Shown piece by piece: positions 22,071-31,800 of a stretch of 64,000 nucleotides of DNA. The stretch is from an uncultured Alphaproteobacteria bacterium (GTDB lineage: Bacteria > Pseudomonadota > Alphaproteobacteria > Rhizobiales > Xanthobacteraceae): contig CAVPFQ010000025.1 in NCBI GenBank assembly GCA_963703845.1, positions 105,486 to 169,485 of the forward strand, written 5' to 3'. Both the position numbers and the translations under genes were made by a program. The first letter of the stretch is position 1; every line of letters starts with the position of its first letter. The notes under the pieces were generated by a model. It was not told the origin of the DNA. It did not search any database and was given only the letters and a program-made list of their open reading frames with translations.

Positions 22071-22175
22071 CGTCATTCCGGGGCAGCCCGCAGGGCTGAA
22101 CCTCAGATGCGCAATTGCGCATTGGGGAATCTCGAGATTCCGGGTTCGATGCTTTCGCATCGCCCCGCAATGACG
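22071..22175. repeat. REP/MITE-like palindromic element, family A
   Basis: Terminal inverted repeats cgtcattccgggg/ccccgcaatgacg, core ggaatctcgagattcc, internal palindrome atgcgcaattgcgcat. Confidence 0.8.
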
Positions 22176-23309: not shown

Positions 23310-23391
23310 CGTCATTCCGGGGCGATGCGAAGCATCGAACCCGGAATCTCGAGATTCCGGGTTCGCGTCTGCGACGCGCCCCGGAATGACG
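23310..23391. repeat. REP/MITE-like palindromic element, family A
   Basis: cgtcattccggggcg...cccggaatctcgagattccggg...cgccccggaatgacg. Confidence 0.85.
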
Positions 23392-23398
23392 GCAGCTC

Positions 23399-24100
23399 TC
23401 AATACTTCCGGTAGAGCCCGATCAGCTTGCCCTGGATCTTGACCCGGTTCGGCGGCAGGATGCGGACCTCGTAAGAGGTATTGGCGGGTTCCAGCGCGAT
23501 CGAGGCGCCGCGGCGGCGGAAGCGTTTTAGCGTCGCCTCCTCCTCGTCGATCAGGGCGACCACGATGTCGCCGGTCTCGGCGCTCTCGTTGCGCTGGATC
23601 AGCGCCATGTCGCCGTCGAGAATGCCGGCATCCACCATGAAATCGCCGCGCACTTCGAGCGCGTAATGTTCGCCGGCGCCCAACATGTCCGGCGGTACGC
23701 TGATGGTGTGGCTGCGGGTCTGCAGCGCCTCGATCGGCGTGCCCGCGGCGATCCGGCCCATCACGGGGACCGCAACCGGGCGGCTGCCGTCGTCGTCGGC
23801 GGAGACGCTGGCCGAGCGGACCTTCCCGAGCGTGCCTTCGATGACGCTCGGCGTGAAGCCGCGGCGTCCGTTGCCGCCGCCGGACAGCTCCGGCAGCTTG
23901 ATGACCTCGATGGCGCGGGCGCGGTTGGGCAGGCGGCGGATGAAGCCGCGCTCTTCCAGCGCCGTGATCAGGCGGTGGATGCCGGACTTGGAGCGCAGAT
24001 CGAGCGCATCCTTCATCTCGTCAAAGGAGGGCGGAACGCCACTTTCCTTCAGGCGCTCGCTGATGAATCGCAAGAGTTCATATTGTTTGCGCGTGAGCAT
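23399..24100 (-). CDS. lexA: SOS repressor LexA (catalytic Ser reads as Phe, probably a sequence error)
   Basis: MLTRKQ w[11 protein letters not shown] (A-G cleavage site), ATLKRF catalytic Lys; RGDFM instead of RGDSM. Confidence 0.95.
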
Positions 24101-24181
24101 CTCGACCAATCCCCAGTTTGATACGTGCCGTCAGACTCCGAGGTGTTCAACAGACACCAGCACTCGAAACAAATCATGAAC

Positions 24182-24266: not shown

Positions 24267-25478
24267 TCACACGGGAAGCCGCAGGATCTCGCAAACCGAA
24301 CCCGTGGCGGCGGCTTTTGCGAACGGCGCGCGGATCACAAGCGCCCGTGCCGCAGCGAGATTTGCAAGCAGCGAGGAATCCTGATGGCCGACGGGGATGG
24401 CGACGAGCGCGCCGTCCGCACGCCGCTCGAGGCGGGCGCGAAGATAGTCCTCGCGCTGGTCGTTCTCGCCGACGTCGCGCCCGAGCAGCGCGCTCTCGCT
24501 GGTATGATGGACGTCCGCGCGCCCCGACAGCGCGCGAATCAGCGGCACCAAGAACAGGAAGCCGCAGACATAGGAGGAGACGGGATTGCCGGGCAGGCCG
24601 ATCACCCGCATGCCCTTGAGTCTGCCGTGCATCATCGGCTTGCCCGGTCGCATCGCGATCTTCCAGAACGCCATCTCCACGCCCTCGGCCTCCAGCGACC
24701 GTTTCACCAGGTCACGGTCGCCGACCGAGGCGCCGCCGGTCGTGATCAGGATGTCGGCGGCGCAGTCGCGGGCGCGGCGGATGCCGGAGGTCGTGGCCTC
24801 GACGGTGTCGGCGGCAATGCCGAGATCGACGATCTCGGCGCCCTGGCTGCGGGCCAGCGCCCGCAGCGCGTAGCCGTTGGAATAGACGATCTGCCCGGGG
24901 CCGGGGGTTTGCCCGGGCATGACGAGTTCGTCGCCGGTCGCGAGTAGCGCCACCTTCGGCCGGCGGCGCACAGCCAATTCCGGGTAGTTCATGCCGGCGG
25001 CCAGCGACAGGTCGCGGTCGGTGAGGCGGCTTCCCTTGGCCAGCAGCACATCGCCTTCGCGAAAATCGATGCCGGCAGGCCGGATGTGCCGTCCCGAGCG
25101 CGCGGCTTCGGTGACGGTGACGGTGGCGCCATCGACGCTGGTGTCTTCCTGGATCACCACCGCGTCGGCACCGTCGGGGATCACCCCGCCGGTGAAAATC
25201 CGCACCGCTTCGCCGGCGCCCAGCGCCTTTTCGAACGGACGGCCGGCCGCGACCTCGCCGATCACGGTAAGCCGTGCCCCGATCTTGGCAGCGTCCGTCG
25301 CGCGCACTGCATAACCGTCCATCGCCGACATCGCCTGTGGTGGCTGCGTGCGCCGCGCGGTGACGTCGCGCGCCAGCACGCGATGATAGGCGGCATCCAG
25401 CGCGACCGTCTCTTCAGCCAACGGTTCCGCGCCCGCGAGGATGGCGGCAAGCGCATCGGCGACCGGCATGAGTGCCAC
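24267..25478 (-). CDS. moeA: Molybdopterin molybdotransferase MoeA
   Basis: SAMDGYAV, RIFTGG, ATGDEL, TTGGASVG, KIAMRPGKP, LPGNPVS. Confidence 0.95.
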   Translation of the reverse strand: MALMPVADALAAILAGAEPLAEETVALDAAYHRVLARDVTARRTQPPQAMSAMDGYAVRATDAAKIGARLTVIGEVAAGRPFEKALGAGEAVRIFTGGVIPDGADAVVIQEDTSVDGATVTVTEAARSGRHIRPAGIDFREGDVLLAKGSRLTDRDLSLAAGMNYPELAVRRRPKVALLATGDELVMPGQTPGPGQIVYSNGYALRALARSQGAEIVDLGIAADTVEATTSGIRRARDCAADILITTGGASVGDRDLVKRSLEAEGVEMAFWKIAMRPGKPMMHGRLKGMRVIGLPGNPVSSYVCGFLFLVPLIRALSGRADVHHTSESALLGRDVGENDQREDYLRARLERRADGALVAIPVGHQDSSLLANLAAARALVIRAPFAKAAATGSVCEILRLPV

Positions 25479-25507
25479 GGCGAAAACTCCTAAGGACTCT
25501 ATCCGCT

Positions 25508-25571
25508 GTCATTGCGAGCCAACGGGTCGGCGCAAGGCGCCGCCCGATGACAGGCTCCGCGAAGCAATCCA
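25508..25571. repeat. REP-like element, family C
   Basis: gtcattgcgagc...cgaagcaatcca; same ends as the element at 30327. Confidence 0.7.
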
Positions 25572-25580
25572 TCTTTCTTT

Positions 25581-25661
25581 CGTCATTCCGGGATGGTCCG
25601 AAGGACCAGACCCGGAATCTCGAGATTCCGGGTTCGATGCTTCGCATCGCCCCGGAATGAC
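25581..25661. repeat. REP/MITE-like palindromic element, family A
   Basis: cgtcattccggg...cccggaatctcgagattccggg...cccggaatgac. Confidence 0.85.
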
Positions 25662-25703
25662 AAAGAGCTTCTGCGCTCGCAATAACGGCTGCTGCTTTAT
25701 AAT

Positions 25704-26333
25704 CTAAATCCCGAGCGCGGCCAGCGCCTGCGCGACATCATCCGGCGACCTCACATGCACCCCGATCAGTCCCTGCGCGCGTGCGCCCGCGATATTGTCG
25801 GCGGAATCGTCGAAGAACACGATCCGCTCCGCCGGAACCCCGATCGCCCTGACCACATGATCATAGGCCGCTGCATCCGGTTTCCGCAGCCCGATCGAGG
25901 AGGAAAGAAAGACTTCGCGGAAATGGCCGAGCACATCGGCATGCAGAGCCGAGAAATGCGCGACATGGGCGTTGTTGGTATTGGAGAAGGCATAGAGCGG
26001 CAGTTTTTTCGCCGCGCGCGCCAGCGCCTGCGCGATGCCGGGCACCTCGCCGGCAAAGATCGCGTTCCACCCCTCCAGGAACTCGGCGTCGGACAGCTTT
26101 ATCCCCATCGCCGCGCACTGGCCGGCGAAATATTCCGCATCGCCGATCTCGCCCCGCTCGTGCCGATGGTTGAGCTCGCCGAGCGACAGCCGCCCGACCA
26201 GTTGTTCCGGCGCGCAAGCCGCATGACGTGCCCAACAGGAAAACGCCCTGGAAAAATCGATGTCGAGTACGACGCGGCCGAGATCGAACAGGAGCGCGTC
26301 GGCCGAGCCGGGGGAGAGTGGGGGGAGCGTCAT
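25704..26333 (-). CDS. HAD-superfamily hydrolase (YihX-like)
   Basis: LLFDLGRVV motif I, FSNTN motif II, KPD motif III, FFDD motif IV. Confidence 0.88.
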   Translation of the reverse strand: MTLPPLSPGSADALLFDLGRVVLDIDFSRAFSCWARHAACAPEQLVGRLSLGELNHRHERGEIGDAEYFAGQCAAMGIKLSDAEFLEGWNAIFAGEVPGIAQALARAAKKLPLYAFSNTNNAHVAHFSALHADVLGHFREVFLSSSIGLRKPDAAAYDHVVRAIGVPAERIVFFDDSADNIAGARAQGLIGVHVRSPDDVAQALAALGI

Positions 26334-26399
26334 GGGGGCGGTGTACGAAAATCGGGGAGAGGGGGCAACGAAATCGGCACCGCCGTCACGCACAATATT

Positions 26400-27114
26400 T
26401 CACTGGACCAAGACCGCGGTCTTCATCTTCTCATAAACCTGCAGGAGCAGTTCGGCCTGCTGGCCCTCCGACATCAGAGCCAGCGGTGTGTTTGGCGAAA
26501 TAGCCCCCTGAAACCTGGCCAACGGAGAGTCTGCGAAGGTCGACGACTTCACCGCAATCCAGAACACCAGGCAGCCTCTGTTGTTCGCCGCCTCCAATAG
26601 TTCCGGGAGTTCCTCGTTGGTGATGAACGGCGAGTTGAGGAAGTCCTGGGTGACTAGGAATACGGCAACGCGCGCCGAGCCAAGCGCCTTGCGTATTTCA
26701 ACAAGCCACTCCGCACCTGGGCGTATCTCCGTGTCATCCCAGACACAGAATCAGATTTCGGTTTTCAAGCGGCCGCAGGAACTGCCGGAGCTTCTCCAGC
26801 CACTCCGCGTCCTTGTGGCTATAGCTGATAAACACCGGTTTTGTAACGCTCACTTTCGGCGCGACGAAGTGCTGGAGATAGAGGACGCGACGAGCCGCGT
26901 CGACTTCGAAGGTCACCTCCAGCGGAGGCGAAGGATGTTTATAGAGCCGCACCTTTCCGTCCTGGCTGATCGAGCGGACTCGACCTGGGTAGGCGTCCGG
27001 ATTGTCAGCCAGCGTATCAAGCAAATCGAAAAGTATGGACAGAGCCTCCTGAGGCAGATCCTTTCGACTTTCCTTTCCGCTGTCCGAGTATTGAATCGCG
27101 TACGCCTCAGGCAT
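26400..27114 (-). CDS. RelE/ParE-like domain fused to a TIR domain (about 237 aa once one extra base near 26747 is removed)
   Basis: N-terminal YAIQYSDSGKESRKDLP...LADNP...LEVTFEVDAARRVLYL; then VFISYSHKD; after the frameshift WDDTEIRPGAEW...ARVAVFLVTQDFLNSPFITNEEL; GGAG RBS; start overlaps the upstream stop. Confidence 0.8.
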
Positions 27115-28147
27115 CGTTGGCTCCATCTGGAGACGCATGGGGGCCATTGCCTGCGAGCCTTACAGCGACGACCTGAATGCGTTGCGAGGCGTGGTCGGCG
27201 ACATACTCGATCTCGACGTGTTTGCCTTTAGTCGTGTCCGGAAGCGTCGCGCCTTCAGGGCGGGGATTTGCTTTCTCCTGCGCTTCGAGTCGCGCGCCGT
27301 TTGTACTGAGCTCCGCCACAAGGTCCCCGAGCTCGATCCGGTCCGCGACGTCCAGCGTGGCTCCCTGCTTGGAAGCATCTCGACTGAATGCGATCGCGTA
27401 GGCCTTTTGTCGAAAGGCGGCGCTTTGCAAGACAGCGTCCTTTCGATCCTTCGTGATCTGCGCGGACTCGATTATCGCGGTCTGTTCCAGGAGCTCGGCC
27501 GGAACAGAAACGACTTCGGGGCCTTCTCGCTCTTGCAGGCTCTGAAGCGCTTTCCTCAGCTGCTCGGCACTTGTCGCCAGGTCCATTCGCTCGCGCTGAT
27601 TCCGCAGATATCGAGCGCCAAATAGTAAACCGGCCGTGATCCCGTAGAACGGCAGCGCGATGAATAGACCTATCCGCTCGTCAGGTGTACGCGCGTCGAT
27701 CGCGGCTTTGCTCGCGACGACCAGGATCAAAATACCGATGCCGGGCAACAGAACGCTGCGAAGCCGGCTGATCCATCAACTCCGCCGGCTTTCCTTCCAT
27801 AGGGAGGTGGAAAGAGAACCGAGGCCGAGTCGCTTCAGCCGCCTGTCTTCGCGAAAAGTCTTGAGAAGCAGCGGAATGTTCAGCGCCAGCGAGAGCATCG
27901 CGACAAGAAAGGACACCGCGAAGACGAGTCCCAGAACCAAGGCCAGCACCCAAAGCCAGTCTCCGCTGAACGAGGCGAAAATGATGGCAAGGAAACATCC
28001 GAAGAGGCTTGCCATGGCCACATCGACGCTGACCAATAACGCGCGGTATGTAATTCTTTCGAGACGCGTTAATTGCAGCGTCTGCCCAGCACTCGAAAGT
28101 ACCTCAATGGTACGCTCGAGTTCATTCGAGGAGAGTGCGACAGCCAT
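27107..28147 (-). CDS. Four-TM membrane protein with a coiled coil and C-terminal RelE/ParE-like domain (about 346 aa through an internal TGA at 27776-27778)
   Basis: Track ORFs 27776..28309 and 27107..27748 are in the same frame and separated by one TGA; four hydrophobic segments; C-terminal KAYAIAFSRDASK...VEIEYVADHASQRIQVVAV. Confidence 0.72.
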
Positions 28148-28423
28148 GGCGCCGAGAACCAAAAATCCAAACCTAACACCCTTGCCGTTCAGACGACAGA
28201 AGTTTTCGCGTGGCGCGGGTGCGAATCTTAGCCACAACCTTGACGCCGCGTCGCCCCGGGGACGCTGACGGACAGCCGCGTCCCGCGCCCGCAGACCGGA
28301 GGTCGACACTCGCGCCCGCTATGCAGGCCTGCAAGGTGCGCTTCGGTCAAACGAAGATGAATCGTCGGTCCAACCGGATTTCCTCACTGCTCCGCGGATC
28401 GGACAAGTGCGGGCCGCTCCCCC

Positions 28424-29551
28424 TCAATACCGGTACGGCTCGATCTCCAGCAGCGGATACGCGCTGAACACGCTCGGCATATTCACCGGCGCGGCTTGAT
28501 GCAGATAGCTCTTGTCGAGCTCGGCGAATTTCGTCACCCCGAGCAGGCCGAGACAGCGCACCACTTCGTCTTCCAGCAGCTCCAGCATCCGCACGATGCC
28601 CTGCTCGCCCTTGGCAGCCAGCGCACAGCAGTGCAGCCGGCCGATGCCGACGAGGTCGGCGCCAAGCGCGATCGCTTTGACGATGTCGGTACCACGATTG
28701 ATGCCGCCGTCCACCATGATTTTGGCGCGACCCTTCACGGCGGCGACGATTTCGGGCAGCACATGCATCGAGCCGCGGCCGTGGTCGAGTTGGCGGCCCC
28801 CATGGTTGGAGACGTAAATCCAGTCGACACCGTGATCGAGCGCGATCTCCGCGTCCTCCGCGGTGGCGATGCCCTTGATCACCAGCGGTATCTTGAACTT
28901 GTCCTTGATCAGCTTCACCGTCCGCCATTCCAGCCCCTTCTGGAAGTCGCCGCCGGTGGCGCGCACGCGGCTGGCGCGGACATAGCGCTTGGCGATGTCG
29001 CGCTCGCGCCGGCTGTAATGGGCGGTATCGACGGTCAGGCAAAACGCGCTGTAGCCGCTCTTGATGGCGCGGGCGACGCGGTCCTCGACAAAGGCGTCGT
29101 CGCCGCGGACATAGAGCTGATACATCCGCAGCGCATCGGGGGCGGCTTCCGCGGTCTTCTCCAGGCCCGGCTCCGACACCGAGCTCAGCATATGCGCAGC
29201 CCCGAACGAGCCGGCGCCGCGCACTACCGCCGCGCCGCCTGCGGGATCGAACAGTTCGAGCGCGCCGACGGGGGCGATCATCACGGGAATCCGCAATTTG
29301 CGGCCGAACAGAGCGACGGAAGCGTCGACGCGGGCGACATTGCGCAGCACGCGCGGCCGGAACGCGATCTCGTCGAGCGCCAAGCGGTTGCGGCGCATCG
29401 TGGTCTCGGTCTCGGCGGCGCCGGCGATATAGTCCCAGCAATTCTGGTTGAGGTTGGCCCGCGCCCTGCTGATCAGTTCGTGCAGGTTCTGGAACTCCTC
29501 GCCGCTGGCGCCGAGTTCGATTTGCGACGGAATGCGTGGCGCCTCGTTCAT
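28424..29551 (-). CDS. FMN-dependent alpha-hydroxy acid oxidase/dehydrogenase
   Basis: IAPVG, LTVD, VIKGI, SNHGGRQLD, DGGINRGTDIVKAIALGA. Confidence 0.92.
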   Translation of the reverse strand: MNEAPRIPSQIELGASGEEFQNLHELISRARANLNQNCWDYIAGAAETETTMRRNRLALDEIAFRPRVLRNVARVDASVALFGRKLRIPVMIAPVGALELFDPAGGAAVVRGAGSFGAAHMLSSVSEPGLEKTAEAAPDALRMYQLYVRGDDAFVEDRVARAIKSGYSAFCLTVDTAHYSRRERDIAKRYVRASRVRATGGDFQKGLEWRTVKLIKDKFKIPLVIKGIATAEDAEIALDHGVDWIYVSNHGGRQLDHGRGSMHVLPEIVAAVKGRAKIMVDGGINRGTDIVKAIALGADLVGIGRLHCCALAAKGEQGIVRMLELLEDEVVRCLGLLGVTKFAELDKSYLHQAAPVNMPSVFSAYPLLEIEPYRY

Positions 29552-29697
29552 GGTGTCCTCCCCGGAAAATGCGTGTTTGTCTCGCCTTGGTCATTCGCCT
29601 ATCGCGTCCTGCGCTTCCGCACCATCCCGAAAATTGCTATGGCTGTCGGCAGCGGGAGCAGAGCAGGAAATCCCGGCGACCAAAGGAGGGGACGTAC

Positions 29698-30261
29698 ATG
29701 ACGAAATTGGCACTATGGGCGGCGCTGGGCCTGAGCCTAGCCGGCGCAACTTCCGCCACCGCGCAGAGCATGACGATTGCCAGCGCCGAGATCAAGGAAG
29801 GCGCCACCATCGCCAACGAGCAGGTGTTCAAGGGCTTTGGCTGCACCGGCGATAATGTGTCGCCCAGCTTGAGCTGGAGCGGGGCGCCTGCGGCCACCAA
29901 GAGCTTTGCGGTCTCCATCTACGATCCGGACGCGCCGACCGGCTCCGGCTGGTGGCACTGGGTGGTGTTCAACATTCCGGCCGCCACGACTTCGCTGCCG
30001 AAGGGTGCCGGCGACGTGAAAAAGAAGCTGATGCCGAAGGGCGCGATCCAGAGTCGGACCGATTTCGGCGCCGACGGCTATGGCGGCCCATGTCCGCCGG
30101 CGGGCGACAAGCCGCACCATTACCAGATCACGGTATTCGCCGTTGACGTCGACAAGCTGCCCGACGCCAAGAACGACATGGCCTCCGCCGCGCTGGTCGG
30201 CTTCGACCTGCATTTCCACACGCTGGCGAAAGCGACGCTGACCGGCCTCTACGGCCGCTGA
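29698..30261 (+). CDS. Periplasmic YbhB/YbcL (PEBP, Raf kinase inhibitor-like) protein
   Basis: Signal peptide; SPSLSWSGAP, DPDAPTGSGWWHWVV, YGGPCPP, HHYQITVFA. Confidence 0.9.
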   Translation: MTKLALWAALGLSLAGATSATAQSMTIASAEIKEGATIANEQVFKGFGCTGDNVSPSLSWSGAPAATKSFAVSIYDPDAPTGSGWWHWVVFNIPAATTSLPKGAGDVKKKLMPKGAIQSRTDFGADGYGGPCPPAGDKPHHYQITVFAVDVDKLPDAKNDMASAALVGFDLHFHTLAKATLTGLYGR

Positions 30262-30272
30262 TGCTCCGCGGC

Positions 30273-30300
30273 GTAGGGTGGGTTAGCGCAGCGTAACCCA
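30273..30300. repeat. GTAG-type REP element
   Basis: gtagggtgggttagcgcagcgtaaccca: GTAG tetramer followed by a gggtta/taaccc hairpin. Confidence 0.65.
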
Positions 30301-30326
30301 GGCGAGATCGCGGAAGTATGTCTTGG

Positions 30327-30449
30327 CGTCATTGCGAAGAGCACTCTTGTCCGCCGAAGCCCGCCTTCGGGCGAAGGCGGATGCGACGAAGCAATCCATC
30401 GAGCAACACGCAAGAAAGTTGGATTGCTTCGCTTACGCTCGCAATGACG
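30327..30449. repeat. REP-like element pair, family C
   Basis: cgtcattgcga...cgaagcaatcca and inverted tggattgcttcg...cgcaatgacg. Confidence 0.75.
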
Positions 30450-30627
30450 CTCTTTGGCCGCTGAACTTAAATCCTCATCCGCCGCCCCGGCGGAATGCCG
30501 GCATCGAACTTCGGGAATTCCGGCTTTGCCGCGGTGGCCAAGCCCGTATATCGTTACGCGATCCGAACAAGACCGCTCGGCGCGCTGCCGGCATGACGAT
30601 GTCGGCCGCCATACGGGGAAATCAGAC

Positions 30628-31800
30628 ATGTCCGGGATGAAGCTGTTTTCGCCGCTCACGATCCGGGGCGTCGAGCTGAAGAACCGCATCGTGGTGCCGC
30701 CGATGCACCAATATTCGGCCATCAAAGGGTTTCCGACCGACTGGCACCTGATGAATGCCGGCAAATTTGCCGCCGGCGGCGCCGGGCTCGTCGTGGTCGA
30801 ATCGACCAAGGTCGAGCGGCGCGGCTGCGGCACCGTGGGCGATCTCGGGATCTGGGATGACGCCTTTGTCGAGCCGCTCGCGCGGCTGGTAAAATTCATC
30901 AAGCAGCAAAACGCCGTAGCCGGCATCCAGCTCGGCCATTCCGGCCGCAAGGCGCGCGCCAATCGCCCCTGGGAAGGCGACGGGCCGCTGAAACGGACGC
31001 CCGAGATCGACGACTGGGAGGCGTGGTCGCCGGTGGCGCCGAGCGCGATCGCCCATAGCGAGAAATGGCCGGTGCCGCGGGCGCTGGAGCGCTCCGAGGT
31101 GAAGGAGCTGGTGCAGGCCTGGGGGCAGGCGGCGCGCCGCGCCCACGAGGCCGGCTTCGACGTGCTGGAACTGCATGGCGCGCACGGCTATCTCGTGCAC
31201 GAGTTCCTGTCGGAACGCTCCAACCAGCGCAGCGACGAATATGGCGGTTCGGAATCGAACCGGATGCGCTTCATCGCCGAGGTCACCGAAGCCGTGCGCA
31301 CGCACTGGCCCGAGGACAAGCCGCTGTTCGTGCGGCTGTCGGTGCAGGACAATGCCGGATGGGGCCCGGAACAGAGCGCGCGGCTGGGGAAAATCCTGAA
31401 ACCCAAAGGGGTCGACGTGATCGACTGCTCCTCCGGCGGCATCACCGATGCGGCCCCGATCCTGGGCAAGGAGATCAGATACAGCTACCAGGTTCCGTTG
31501 TCGGAATATGTCCGCCGTAACGCCGATATCATGACCATGGCGGTTGGCCTCATCATCCATGGCGACCAGGCCGAGCAGATCCTGCAGGCGGGGCAGGCCG
31601 ATTTGATCGCGGTCGGGCGCGAAATCCTCAATAATCCGAACTGGCCGATGGATGCTGCCCTGAAACTGGGCATTGAGGGCGCATTCCGCGGCGTGCCTCC
31701 GCAGTTCGGCTGGTGGCTCGGCACCCGCGCCAAGCGGGGATTTGGCACAATGCCGTCAACCTGGCAAAACGGCCTCAAAGATACCGGAAAGGTGATGTGA
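30628..31800 (+). CDS. NADH:flavin oxidoreductase (Old Yellow Enzyme, YqjM-like)
   Basis: KNRIVVPPMHQYS, QLGHSGRKA, LHGAHGYLVHEFLS, NQRSDEYGGS..NR. Confidence 0.92.
   Translation: MSGMKLFSPLTIRGVELKNRIVVPPMHQYSAIKGFPTDWHLMNAGKFAAGGAGLVVVESTKVERRGCGTVGDLGIWDDAFVEPLARLVKFIKQQNAVAGIQLGHSGRKARANRPWEGDGPLKRTPEIDDWEAWSPVAPSAIAHSEKWPVPRALERSEVKELVQAWGQAARRAHEAGFDVLELHGAHGYLVHEFLSERSNQRSDEYGGSESNRMRFIAEVTEAVRTHWPEDKPLFVRLSVQDNAGWGPEQSARLGKILKPKGVDVIDCSSGGITDAAPILGKEIRYSYQVPLSEYVRRNADIMTMAVGLIIHGDQAEQILQAGQADLIAVGREILNNPNWPMDAALKLGIEGAFRGVPPQFGWWLGTRAKRGFGTMPSTWQNGLKDTGKVM

What the first reader, a model, noticed from the sequence alone, without database searches (positions are those of the whole stretch)
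27107..28147. Two track ORFs are one 4-TM membrane protein with a cytoplasmic RelE-like tail
Seen: ...WKESRRS-TGA-WISRLRSVLLPGIG... stays in frame. Changing A27778 to G makes TGA into CGA (Arg) and restores a GACTC site. The product has four hydrophobic helices, a coiled-coil-like stretch (RNQRERMDLATSAEQLRKALQSLQ) and a RelE-like domain at about 27160-27406. Inference: a RelE fold on an integral membrane protein is an unusual architecture and could be a gated pore or an anchor for the TIR partner.
Basis: partly seen in the sequence, partly recalled or inferred. Interest (0 to 1): 0.7.

Follow-up and report, generated by a model that had tools for sequence, protein, structure and literature searches.

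The report
One membrane gene, split by misread base
The two ORFs are one gene for a four-helix membrane protein with a RelE-shaped cytoplasmic tail that always sits next to a RelE-shaped/TIR enzyme gene, and the stop codon splitting it is most likely a sequencing miscall at a methylated GANTC site, not biology.

Summary
Observation confirmed. On the minus strand, 28147..27107 is one reading frame with a single in-frame TGA (27778..27776). More than 170 homologues are single 340-390 aa proteins that cover the read-through protein end to end. At the stop position 92 of 109 have Arg.

AlphaFold2 of the 86%-identical intact homologue gives four TM helices, a long helix continuing from TM4, and a C-terminal beta-alpha-alpha-beta-beta-beta domain. 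Its best PDB matches are RelE (TM 0.84), HigB, YoeB, ParE and Cami1.

In the 10 relatives with enough downstream sequence the next gene is a 237-243 aa TIR_2 protein. Its N-terminal domain is also RelE-fold. This is an uncharacterised, mostly soil-borne two-gene cassette.

New here: the TGA is probably not real. Short-read contigs from a ~99.9% identical soil population read G at 27778 (CGA, Arg; GACTC). They also lack the extra A at 26747 that frameshifts the TIR gene. Across the window, 8 of 74 substitution differences restore a GANTC the window lacks, and none go the other way. In a sister assembly, 8 of 9 differences are G>A at GANTC. LexA's catalytic Ser reads Phe at another such site. 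This matches nanopore miscalls at methylated CcrM sites.

Function is inferred, not shown: a membrane-anchored partner of a TIR enzyme.

The parts
27107..28147 (-). Whole gene for the 346-aa membrane protein (read through the TGA): N-terminal cytoplasmic helix, TM1-TM2, conserved basic loop, TM3-TM4, long helix, linker helix, RelE-fold domain
27776..27778 (-). Apparent nonsense codon TGA at residue 124, in the cytoplasmic loop between TM2 and TM3. Homologues have Arg. Short-read contig X2 reads CGA.
27778..27782 (+). AACTC in the window = GACTC (GANTC, CcrM-type site) in the short-read contig. Its first base is the miscalled or mutated base.
27971..28045 (-). TM1 (about residues 35-59)
27881..27958 (-). 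TM2 (about residues 64-89)
27767..27880 (-). Cytoplasmic loop 2 (residues 90-127), 10 K+R, one of the most conserved parts of the protein (NIPLLxKTFRExxRLKRLGLxSLSxSLWKESRRSRWIS). Contains the stop.
27707..27766 (-). TM3 (about residues 128-147)
27614..27676 (-). TM4 (about residues 158-178)
27518..27613 (-). AF2 models one helix over residues 155-208. No coiled-coil predictor was run.
27410..27517 (-). Conserved short strand + helix linker (VSVP-ELLEQTAxIESAQIxKERKDAVLQS), residues 211-246. Lower model confidence. Possibly an antitoxin-like or docking segment (inference).
27143..27409 (-). RelE/ParE-fold domain (residues 247-335), beta-alpha-alpha-beta-beta-beta
26400..27114 (-). Partner gene: RelE-fold N-domain (about residues 1-86) + TIR_2 domain. 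Its ATG overlaps the upstream stop (ATGCCTGA). It reads as frameshifted in the window.
26747..26747 (+). Extra A directly 5' of a GAATC site. It turns codon CGT (Arg; LIRVWDD in homologues) into C-T-GT and shifts the TIR frame. It is absent from short-read contigs X1 and X4 and from the sister assembly L011.

Best explanation
28147..27107 (minus) is one gene. It encodes a 346-aa inner-membrane protein, N-in/C-in. It has four poorly conserved TM helices, highly conserved cytoplasmic parts (N-terminal helix, basic loop 2, a long helix running out of TM4, a linker helix) and a C-terminal RelE/ParE-fold domain.

It is the first gene of a conserved, mobile two-gene cassette. The second gene overlaps it by 8 nt and encodes a RelE-fold domain fused to a TIR_2 domain.

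The TGA that splits the gene in this window is most likely not in the organism's DNA, and neither is the 1-nt insertion that frameshifts the TIR gene. Both sit at GANTC (CcrM-type m6A) sites and carry the signature of long-read basecalling errors at methylated motifs (G read as A at the first G). The real locus is therefore probably intact.

Mechanism, inferred and not shown: the membrane protein holds or regulates the TIR enzyme at the inner membrane. The contact would run through the matched RelE-fold domains and/or the conserved linker helix, either homotypic (adaptor-like) or toxin-antitoxin-like docking. A cytoplasmic-face or membrane-level trigger would release or cluster the TIR domain, which then consumes NAD+ or makes an ADPR-derived signal. 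That would be an abortive-infection type defence. The RelE-fold tail is probably a binding module rather than an mRNA interferase.
For: One gene: full-length single homologues; Arg at the stop column, 92 of 109.

Cassette: in 10 contexts with enough downstream sequence, including members as distant as 120-190 bits, a 237-243 aa TIR_2 gene follows with an 8-nt overlap, and the flanking genes are unrelated. In an 11th, cut by the contig end, the downstream ORF starts with the same RelE-like/TIR sequence.

Architecture: AF2 mean pLDDT 78, above 90 in the TM core and the tail. Hydropathy and K+R counts are loop2 10, periplasmic loops 0-1. Conservation is 0.80 in the cytoplasmic parts against 0.43-0.49 in the TM helices and about 0.2 in the outer loops.

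RelE fold: 4fxe_E TMt 0.84, rmsd 1.9; then RelE from P. horikoshii, M. tuberculosis and T. thermophilus, HigB2, YoeB, ParE and Cami1. The partner N-domain matches 3g5o_B at TMt 0.83, and its C-domain matches MAL, SARM1, AbTir and SPARTA TIRs. Pfam TIR_2 scores 54 bits against a cut-off of 28. The two RelE-fold domains align in register over 78 columns (hhalign E 0.025, weak).

Artefact: short-read contig X2 reads G at 27778; X1 and X4 lack the A at 26747. Of 74 substitution differences between window and short reads, 8 restore a GANTC the window lacks and 0 do the reverse (P 1.5e-5). Two further indels lie at GANTC (26747, 18377). In the Logan contig L010, 8 of 9 differences from the window are G>A/C>T at the outer bases of GANTC (P 3e-16). 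LexA's catalytic Ser reads Phe at another AAATC/GAATC site. Methylation-linked G-to-A SNP-like nanopore artefacts are documented (bioRxiv 10.64898/2026.01.14.699587; PMC11610603).
Against: The TGA is present in three assemblies: the window, L011 (a 486-kb ENA contig) and L010. If these were made with accurate reads, it would be a real, inherited mutation. I could not establish their sequencing platform. 'contig_N' naming and the GANTC signature suggest nanopore/Flye, but that is inference.

Only one short-read contig (depth 4) covers 27778, and it comes from a different study, so it could be a different strain.

No reads of the window's own source were available, and no indexed run holds the TGA words.

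For the mechanism: there is no experiment, no complex prediction and no sequence-level RelE membership. The similarity between the two RelE-fold domains is statistically weak. Which protein is sensor and which is effector is open.
Confidence: 0.8

Rival explanations
1. The TGA and the TIR frameshift are real mutations. The cassette is being pseudogenised in this lineage: nonsense first (shared by the window, L010 and L011), then the TIR frameshift (window and L010), as often happens to costly abortive-infection modules.
For: The TGA is shared by three assemblies, and the frameshift by two of them. This gives a tidy order of events. The island has lower GC than its flanks (0.56-0.60 against 0.65-0.70), so it is acquired and dispensable. 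A near-identical population carries the intact alleles.
Against: Both lesions lie exactly at GANTC sites and have the same form as a window-wide, one-directional excess of GANTC-destroying differences (8 against 0). L010 shows the same signature in 8 of 9 differences. In L010 the 26747/26748 site reads differently again (AAAATC), which looks like basecalling trouble. LexA, a core regulator, has its catalytic Ser 'mutated' in the same way.
Confidence: 0.12
2. The membrane protein is the effector, not the anchor. As in type II Thoeris, the TIR protein senses infection and makes an ADPR-derived signal. The RelE-fold tail binds it, and the 4-TM part oligomerises into a pore that depolarises the cell.
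For: The TIR domain scores best against ThsB-type and SAVED-TIR models in PADLOC (E 1e-12 to 2e-14). The two-gene layout of TIR plus TM protein parallels Thoeris II (my own knowledge). TM sequences are poorly conserved, as in many pore effectors. A RelE domain works as an effector module in the signal-activated Cami1, which appears among the fold hits.
Against: No SLOG, Macro, SAVED or other known nucleotide-sensor domain is present, and no PADLOC hit at E<=1. A RelE fold is not known to sense small ligands. This model does not explain why the TIR protein carries the same fold.
Confidence: 0.2
3. The two ORFs are separate functional genes, or the TGA is recoded (selenocysteine or programmed read-through).
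For: ORF callers give 123-aa and 213-aa products.
Against: No homologue is split. The column is Arg/Gln, never Cys or Sec. The second ORF would need an internal TTG start inside TM3. The stop falls in the most conserved loop. Accurate reads give CGA.
Confidence: 0.01
4. The cassette is an addiction (toxin-antitoxin-like) module rather than a phage-defence system. The membrane protein acts as antitoxin or tether for a RelE-fold/TIR toxin.
For: Both proteins have the fold of type II toxins. The genes overlap tightly. The cassette is inserted as a stand-alone unit at unrelated chromosomal sites, sometimes near transposase or Prim-Pol genes.
Against: There is no DNA-binding antitoxin domain and no small labile partner. 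A 346-aa integral membrane antitoxin has no precedent. TIR modules characterised so far in bacteria are mostly defence systems (my own knowledge).
Confidence: 0.1

Closest known systems
ToxM/ToxR membrane-associated BECR-fold toxins (Gerdes 2025, mBio, PMC11980606)
   Same: A RelE/ParE (BECR)-fold domain on an integral membrane protein, cytoplasmic, proposed to act in defence at the inner membrane.
   Different: ToxM has an N-terminal BECR domain, a central TM region and a periplasmic C-terminal domain, with an upstream RHH/HTH antitoxin ToxR. Here the order is reversed (4 TM first, RelE fold last). There is no periplasmic domain and no antitoxin gene. The partner is a RelE-fold/TIR protein. 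No Pfam BECR family detects either protein.
Type II Thoeris (ThsB TIR + Macro-TM ThsA)
   Same: A two-gene unit pairing a TIR protein with a multi-pass membrane protein. The TIR scores against ThsB models.
   Different: The membrane protein has no Macro, SLOG or SIR2 sensor. The TIR carries an extra RelE-fold domain. The gene order and 8-nt overlap are specific to this cassette.
RelE/ParE type II toxins (RelE, HigB, YoeB, ParE)
   Same: The predicted fold and topology match, with TM-scores of 0.7-0.84 to solved RelE structures for both domains.
   Different: There is no detectable sequence membership. By a secondary-structure-anchored register, the positions of RelE K52/K54/R61/Y87 are T/L/E/absent in the membrane protein's tail (my reading, with the RelE sequence recalled from memory; hhalign aligned only the first 32 columns). 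There is no cognate antitoxin. The domains are embedded in larger proteins.
Cami1 (CARF-RelE, type III CRISPR ancillary effector; PDB 8phb)
   Same: A RelE-fold domain recruited into a multidomain immune protein. It appears among the fold hits.
   Different: Cami1 is soluble, senses cyclic oligoadenylate through CARF and cleaves ribosome-bound mRNA. There is no CARF domain, no CRISPR context and no conserved RelE active site here.
Effector-associated domain (EAD) pairs of bacterial conflict systems (Kaur et al. 2020, eLife, PMC7159879)
   Same: The logic matches: the same small domain on an effector (here TIR) and on its partner protein, predicted to couple them by homotypic contact.
   Different: The described EADs are other folds and are attached to NTPase-centred systems. 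A RelE fold in this role has not been described in the papers I read. The homotypic contact here is only inferred.

Membership tests
RelE/ParE (BECR-fold) superfamily | beta-alpha-alpha-beta-beta-beta core fold superimposable on solved RelE/ParE toxins | tested here: met
   AF2 model of P0001 residues 250-335, pLDDT about 91-93 in the core. Foldseek PDB hits: 4fxe_E TMt 0.84 rmsd 1.9; 3g5o_B 0.84; 2khe 0.79; HigB2, YoeB, ParE. This rests on a predicted structure, not a solved one.
RelE/ParE (BECR-fold) superfamily | Match to a curated sequence family (Pfam ParE_toxin, RelE, HigB, YoeB and others) | tested here: not met
   No such Pfam hit at E<=1 for the whole protein or at E<=10 for 25 isolated tail domains. 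No PDB sequence hit at E<=10.
RelE/ParE (BECR-fold) superfamily | RelE catalytic residues (E. coli K52, K54, R61, R81, Y87) | tested here: inconclusive
   hhalign against E. coli RelE (sequence from memory) aligned only beta1-alpha2 (E 0.021). By strand register, the family-conserved residues in beta2-beta4 are T306, E312, Y315 and D318, not Lys/Arg. This suggests a non-catalytic domain but is not proof.
RelE/ParE (BECR-fold) superfamily | Adjacent cognate antitoxin gene | tested here: not met
   In the contexts examined the only conserved neighbour is the TIR gene.
TIR domain proteins (partner gene) | TIR_2/TIR profile match above the curated threshold, and a TIR fold | tested here: met
   PF13676 at 54 bits against a cut-off of 28, and PF01582 at 23.1 against 21.3. 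Foldseek hits to MAL, SARM1, AbTir and SPARTA TIRs.
TIR domain proteins (partner gene) | Catalytic glutamate for NAD+ cleavage | tested here: inconclusive
   An invariant Glu (E168 of P0121, in ...SPFIxxxELP...) sits where TIR_2 proteins carry it, judged by motif. I did not make a residue-level structural alignment to a characterised enzyme.
Thoeris | ThsA effector with SIR2/SLOG or Macro-TM next to ThsB | tested here: not met
   The membrane protein has no Pfam, NCBIfam or PADLOC hit. The TIR matches ThsB models only over the TIR domain. NCBIfam Thoeris type III ThcB4 scores 14.5 bits against a cut-off of 220.
ToxM/ToxR | N-terminal BECR domain, central TM, periplasmic C-domain, upstream RHH/HTH antitoxin | tested here: not met
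   The domain order is opposite, there are four TM helices with minimal outer loops, and there is no upstream small DNA-binding gene (description).
Methylation-motif basecalling artefact (long-read assemblies) | Discrepancies against accurate reads concentrated at one methylation motif, mostly one substitution type, in one direction | tested here: met
   8 of 74 substitutions restore a GANTC and 0 destroy one. Seven are G>A at position 1 or C>T at position 5, and one is C>A at position 5 (60083). P 1.5e-5 (3e-9 restricted to positions 1/5). In L010, 8 of 9 differences are of this kind. Two indels lie at GANTC.
Methylation-motif basecalling artefact (long-read assemblies) | Source data are native-DNA nanopore reads, with strand-biased miscalls | not testable with these tools
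   The window's source and its reads are not available. The platform of ERZ25039470 and ERR10755948 could not be confirmed.

The most novel reading that the evidence does not exclude
The cassette is a new kind of membrane-anchored TIR immune module in which a RelE/ParE toxin fold has been re-used twice. One copy is on a 4-TM protein and one is on the TIR enzyme, as a matched docking pair or as a ribosome/RNA-sensing head. This couples events at the inner membrane to NAD+-directed cell suicide or signalling.
Probability: 0.3. Interest if true: 0.65.

Novelty: new variant of a known kind. Interest (0 to 1): 0.45.

Why it matters
There are two separate lessons.

Technical: this window carries residual errors at GANTC sites that create false nonsense, frameshift and active-site 'mutations'. 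Examples are the membrane gene, the TIR gene and LexA. Pseudogene calls from such assemblies need a motif-aware check.

Biological: once repaired, the locus is an intact member of an unannotated, mostly soil-borne family (390 clusters at 50% identity; only two GTDB species representatives). The family pairs a 4-TM/RelE-fold protein with a RelE-fold/TIR enzyme. If the matched RelE folds are a docking pair, this adds a new adaptor fold to bacterial immune systems. It would also add a second, differently built example of membrane-anchored BECR-fold proteins after ToxM. All of this can be tested by ordinary expression, phage-challenge and NAD+ assays.

Tried and rejected
I used the 86%-identical intact homologue P0001 instead.

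2. Sequence-profile routes to RelE all failed: Pfam on the whole protein and on 25 isolated tails, a PDB hmmsearch with whole-protein and tail profiles, NCBIfam and PADLOC. Only the fold comparison shows the relationship.

3. hhalign of the tail against E. coli RelE aligned only 32 columns. That was too little to settle the catalytic residues.

4. Searching for runs that hold the TGA-containing 31-mers found none. The same search for the frameshift site failed for lack of index words.

5. A direct short-read check of the LexA Ser/Phe site failed for lack of coverage at 23632-23715.

6. I tried to tie ERR10755948/ERZ25039470 to the Microflora Danica nanopore project (PRJEB58634). The accession numbers are not in the held text and no supplement is held, so the platform stays an inference.

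7. The promoter/terminator scan and repeat search around the cassette showed nothing above chance.

8. The literature search for RelE+TIR+transmembrane systems found no description of this cassette. 'RelE' hits in PMC7159879 were the word 'release'.

9. Considered and rejected: selenocysteine or read-through recoding, and two independent genes (see rivals).
Full report
**1. The observation**

On the minus strand the sequence from ATG 28147 to TGA 27107 is a single frame of 347 codons with one internal stop. It reads ...WKESRRS-TGA-WISRLRSVLLPGIG..., with the stop at 27778..27776. ORF listing therefore gives a 123-aa piece (from the ATG) and a 213-aa piece (from an internal TTG). The T of the stop is plus-strand A27778. 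A G there gives CGA (Arg) and a plus-strand GACTC. The description is accurate.

**2. It is one gene**

A search with the read-through protein returned 176 relatives. The best 120 are single proteins of about 340-390 aa covering 95-100% of the query, at 43-86% identity. An exhaustive profile search of 1.84 billion representatives found 390 clusters (E<=0.001). The full-length members match the profile from end to end, and the short ones are fragments from short contigs. In an alignment of 109 homologues the stop column is R in 92, Q in 10, S in 4 and other in 3. No homologue is split.

**3. Architecture**

Hydropathy gives four hydrophobic segments. AlphaFold2 of the 86%-identical intact homologue P0001, with a 109-sequence alignment, has mean pLDDT 78. 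The model has:
- helices 28-61, 64-89, 126-151 and 155-208;
- two short amphipathic helices in the loop between TM2 and TM3;
- a short strand plus helix 217-244;
- a C-terminal beta(251-254)-alpha-alpha-beta-beta-beta(323-331) domain.

Charge counts follow the positive-inside rule. Loop 2 has 10 K+R, and the two outer loops have 0 and 1 with net negative charge, so both termini and loop 2 are cytoplasmic. Conservation is inverted relative to hydrophobicity. The cytoplasmic parts have a majority-residue fraction of 0.67-0.80, the TM helices 0.43-0.49, and the outer loops about 0.2. The specific chemistry therefore lies on the cytoplasmic face.

I ran no coiled-coil predictor.

**4. The RelE-like tail**

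Foldseek of the model against the PDB puts RelE first:
- E. coli RelE 4fxe_E, TM-score on target 0.84, rmsd 1.9 A over 83 columns;
- then RelE from P. horikoshii, M. tuberculosis and T. thermophilus;
- then HigB2, HigB, YoeB, ParE, and the CARF-RelE effector Cami1.

No sequence method sees this relationship. That covers Pfam on the whole protein or on 25 isolated tails, PDB profile searches, NCBIfam and PADLOC.

Anchoring on the predicted strands, the family-conserved residues of the sheet are T306, E312, Y315 and D318 rather than the Lys/Arg residues of the RelE active site. I therefore regard the tail as a RelE-fold binding module and not a demonstrated nuclease. This point is inference.

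**5. The partner**

Immediately downstream is a gene that overlaps the stop (ATGCCTGA). Its product has a TIR_2 domain (54 bits against a cut-off of 28). In the window it is frameshifted...PLENRNLILCLG* continues in another frame as VWDDTEIRPG....

Its relatives are intact proteins of 237-243 aa at 70-95% identity, so they are more conserved than the membrane protein. AF2 (mean pLDDT 79) shows an N-terminal beta-alpha-alpha-beta-beta-beta-beta domain (residues 6-84) and a C-terminal TIR. Foldseek hits RelE2 and RelE1 of M. tuberculosis (TMt 0.83, 0.77), T. thermophilus RelE and YoeB for the first domain. For the second it hits MAL, SARM1, AbTir and SPARTA TIRs.

Both proteins of the pair therefore carry a RelE-fold domain. 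Profile-profile comparison aligns the two domains in register over 78 columns, but weakly (E 0.025).

**6. Conserved cassette**

In every context with enough downstream sequence the membrane gene is followed, with an 8-nt overlap, by the 237-243 aa TIR_2 gene. These contexts are:
- four long metagenome contigs;
- Microvirga massiliensis JC119;
- a Burkholderiaceae MAG;
- P0019;
- the distant members P0364 and P0302.

The flanking genes are unrelated (flagellar, ABC transporter, metabolic, transposase, Prim-Pol). In L015, which is cut by the contig end, the downstream ORF begins with the same RelE-like/TIR sequence. Among 185,579 species representatives only two carry the cassette. Most members come from soil metagenomes. 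In the window the roughly 2-kb island has GC 0.56-0.60 against 0.65-0.70 in its flanks.

**7. Is the stop real?**

Soil-metagenome contigs of a 2024 study (X1-X4; many pieces of 151 nt, so apparently short reads) are about 99.9% identical to the window. The one contig that covers 27778 reads G, which gives CGA (Arg). X1 and X4 lack the A at 26747 that shifts the TIR frame, which restores CGT (Arg) and the family's LIRVWDD.

Two other assemblies do carry the TGA:
- L011, a 486-kb ENA contig from the same chromosomal locus. It is identical to the window over 24775-28226 except that it lacks the extra A, so its TIR gene is intact.
- L010, a Logan contig of ERR10755948, with both lesions.

Taken alone this would suggest an inherited nonsense mutation followed by a frameshift. 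However, 8 of the 9 substitutions between L010 and the window are G>A at the first G, or C>T at the last C (the same change on the other strand), of GANTC sites (P about 3e-16).

Between the window and the short-read contigs over 8000-64000 there are 74 substitution differences. Eight of them restore a GANTC that the window lacks: 26371, 27778, 30469, 31743, 31818, 53071, 60083 and 61246. None go the other way (P 1.5e-5, or 3e-9 for positions 1/5 only). The indels at 26747 and 18377 also touch GANTC sites.

LexA in the same window reads GDFM where the catalytic Ser belongs. The Phe aligns to the Ser of LexA 3k2z, and the codon TTC lies in a plus-strand AAATC that would be GAATC with Ser. Short reads do not cover that site.

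GANTC is the CcrM m6A motif of Alphaproteobacteria (established knowledge). Native-DNA nanopore reads make G-to-A and A-to-G miscalls concentrated at methylation motifs, and some survive as SNP-like calls (bioRxiv 10.64898/2026.01.14.699587; PMC11610603). I conclude, at roughly 85% confidence, that the TGA and the TIR frameshift are residual basecalling errors shared by assemblies made with the same technology, and that the locus is intact in the organism.

I could not confirm the platform of those assemblies, and the window's own reads were not available. A real pseudogenisation therefore keeps about 12%.

**8. How it probably works (inference)**

The shown facts are:
- obligatory pairing and translational coupling of the two genes;
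- a TIR enzyme domain with an invariant Glu in the expected motif;
- a membrane protein whose conserved surfaces are all cytoplasmic;
- a RelE fold on each partner.

The most economical model is that the membrane protein tethers and controls the TIR enzyme at the inner membrane. The contact would run through the matched RelE-fold domains, or through the conserved linker helix acting like an antitoxin peptide. A trigger at the membrane or its cytoplasmic face would then free or cluster the TIR domain for NAD+ cleavage, giving abortive infection.

The main rival is a Thoeris-II-like scheme in which the TIR makes a signal and the 4-TM protein is the pore. That model does not explain the second RelE fold, and no known sensor domain is present.

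**9. Comparison with known systems**

The nearest published parallel for a membrane-anchored RelE fold is ToxM/ToxR (Gerdes 2025). ToxM has an N-terminal BECR domain, one TM region, a periplasmic domain and a DNA-binding antitoxin, which is a different layout. That paper does not mention TIR. The cassette is not a member of Thoeris, of ToxMR or of any curated RelE/ParE sequence family. It resembles the effector-associated-domain logic of PMC7159879 only in principle. I found no description of it.

**10. Verdict**

The repaired locus is an uncharacterised variant of TIR-based two-gene modules with an unusual doubled RelE fold. It is of moderate interest and fully testable.

Noticed in passing
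window 23639-23641 (LexA ORF 23399-24109, minus): LexA reads GDFM instead of the catalytic-serine motif. The Phe aligns with the Ser of LexA 3k2z. The codon TTC lies in plus-strand AAATC, which would be GAATC (GANTC) if the codon were TCC (Ser). This is probably the same methylation-linked miscall, not a non-cleavable LexA. Short reads do not cover the site.
   Followed up: partly
window 26747 (TIR partner gene 26400-27114, minus): An extra A directly 5' of a GAATC site frameshifts the TIR gene at about residue 123, upstream of the invariant Glu. It is absent from short-read contigs X1/X4 and from sister assembly L011. In L010 the same site reads AAAATC.
   Followed up: yes
window 26371, 30469, 31743, 31818, 53071, 60083, 61246; indel 18377: Further places where short-read contigs restore a GANTC site that the window lacks (AANTC, GANTT or GANTA in the window). 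These are likely residual basecalling errors. Any coding consequences were not examined.
   Followed up: partly
L010 (Logan contig of ERR10755948) = window 25636-28883: 8 of the 9 differences from the window are G>A/C>T at the outer bases of GANTC sites (8 of the 14 sites in that stretch). This is a clean read-out of a GANTC-specific error, and so of GANTC methylation in this organism.
   Followed up: yes
L011 (ENA ERZ25039470 contig_35576) vs window 24775-31100: L011 is identical to the window from 24775 to 28226 apart from the 26747 base, then about 1.2% divergent from 28227 onward (35 substitutions in 2.9 kb). The sharp change could mean recombination, a strain-mosaic assembly, or recent transfer of the segment carrying the cassette.
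   Followed up: no
window about 22100-22110, 23310-23390, 25530-25660: Short palindromic repeat elements (for example inverted repeat 25600-25643) have very high depth in the soil metagenomes (up to 138x against about 5x). Contig joints link these places to each other, so this is a multi-copy intergenic repeat family flanking LexA, MoeA and the HAD gene.
   Followed up: no
L002 2298-2708 (Microvirga massiliensis JC119): In Microvirga a 136-aa pentapeptide-repeat gene overlaps the start of the membrane gene by 4 nt. This third gene is absent from the window and from the other contexts.
   Followed up: no
window 19608 and 28419: Single-base length differences in C homopolymers relative to the short-read contigs (19608) and L011 (28419). 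These are typical long-read homopolymer errors. 19608 lies between the listed ORFs; the coding context of 28419 was not examined.
   Followed up: no
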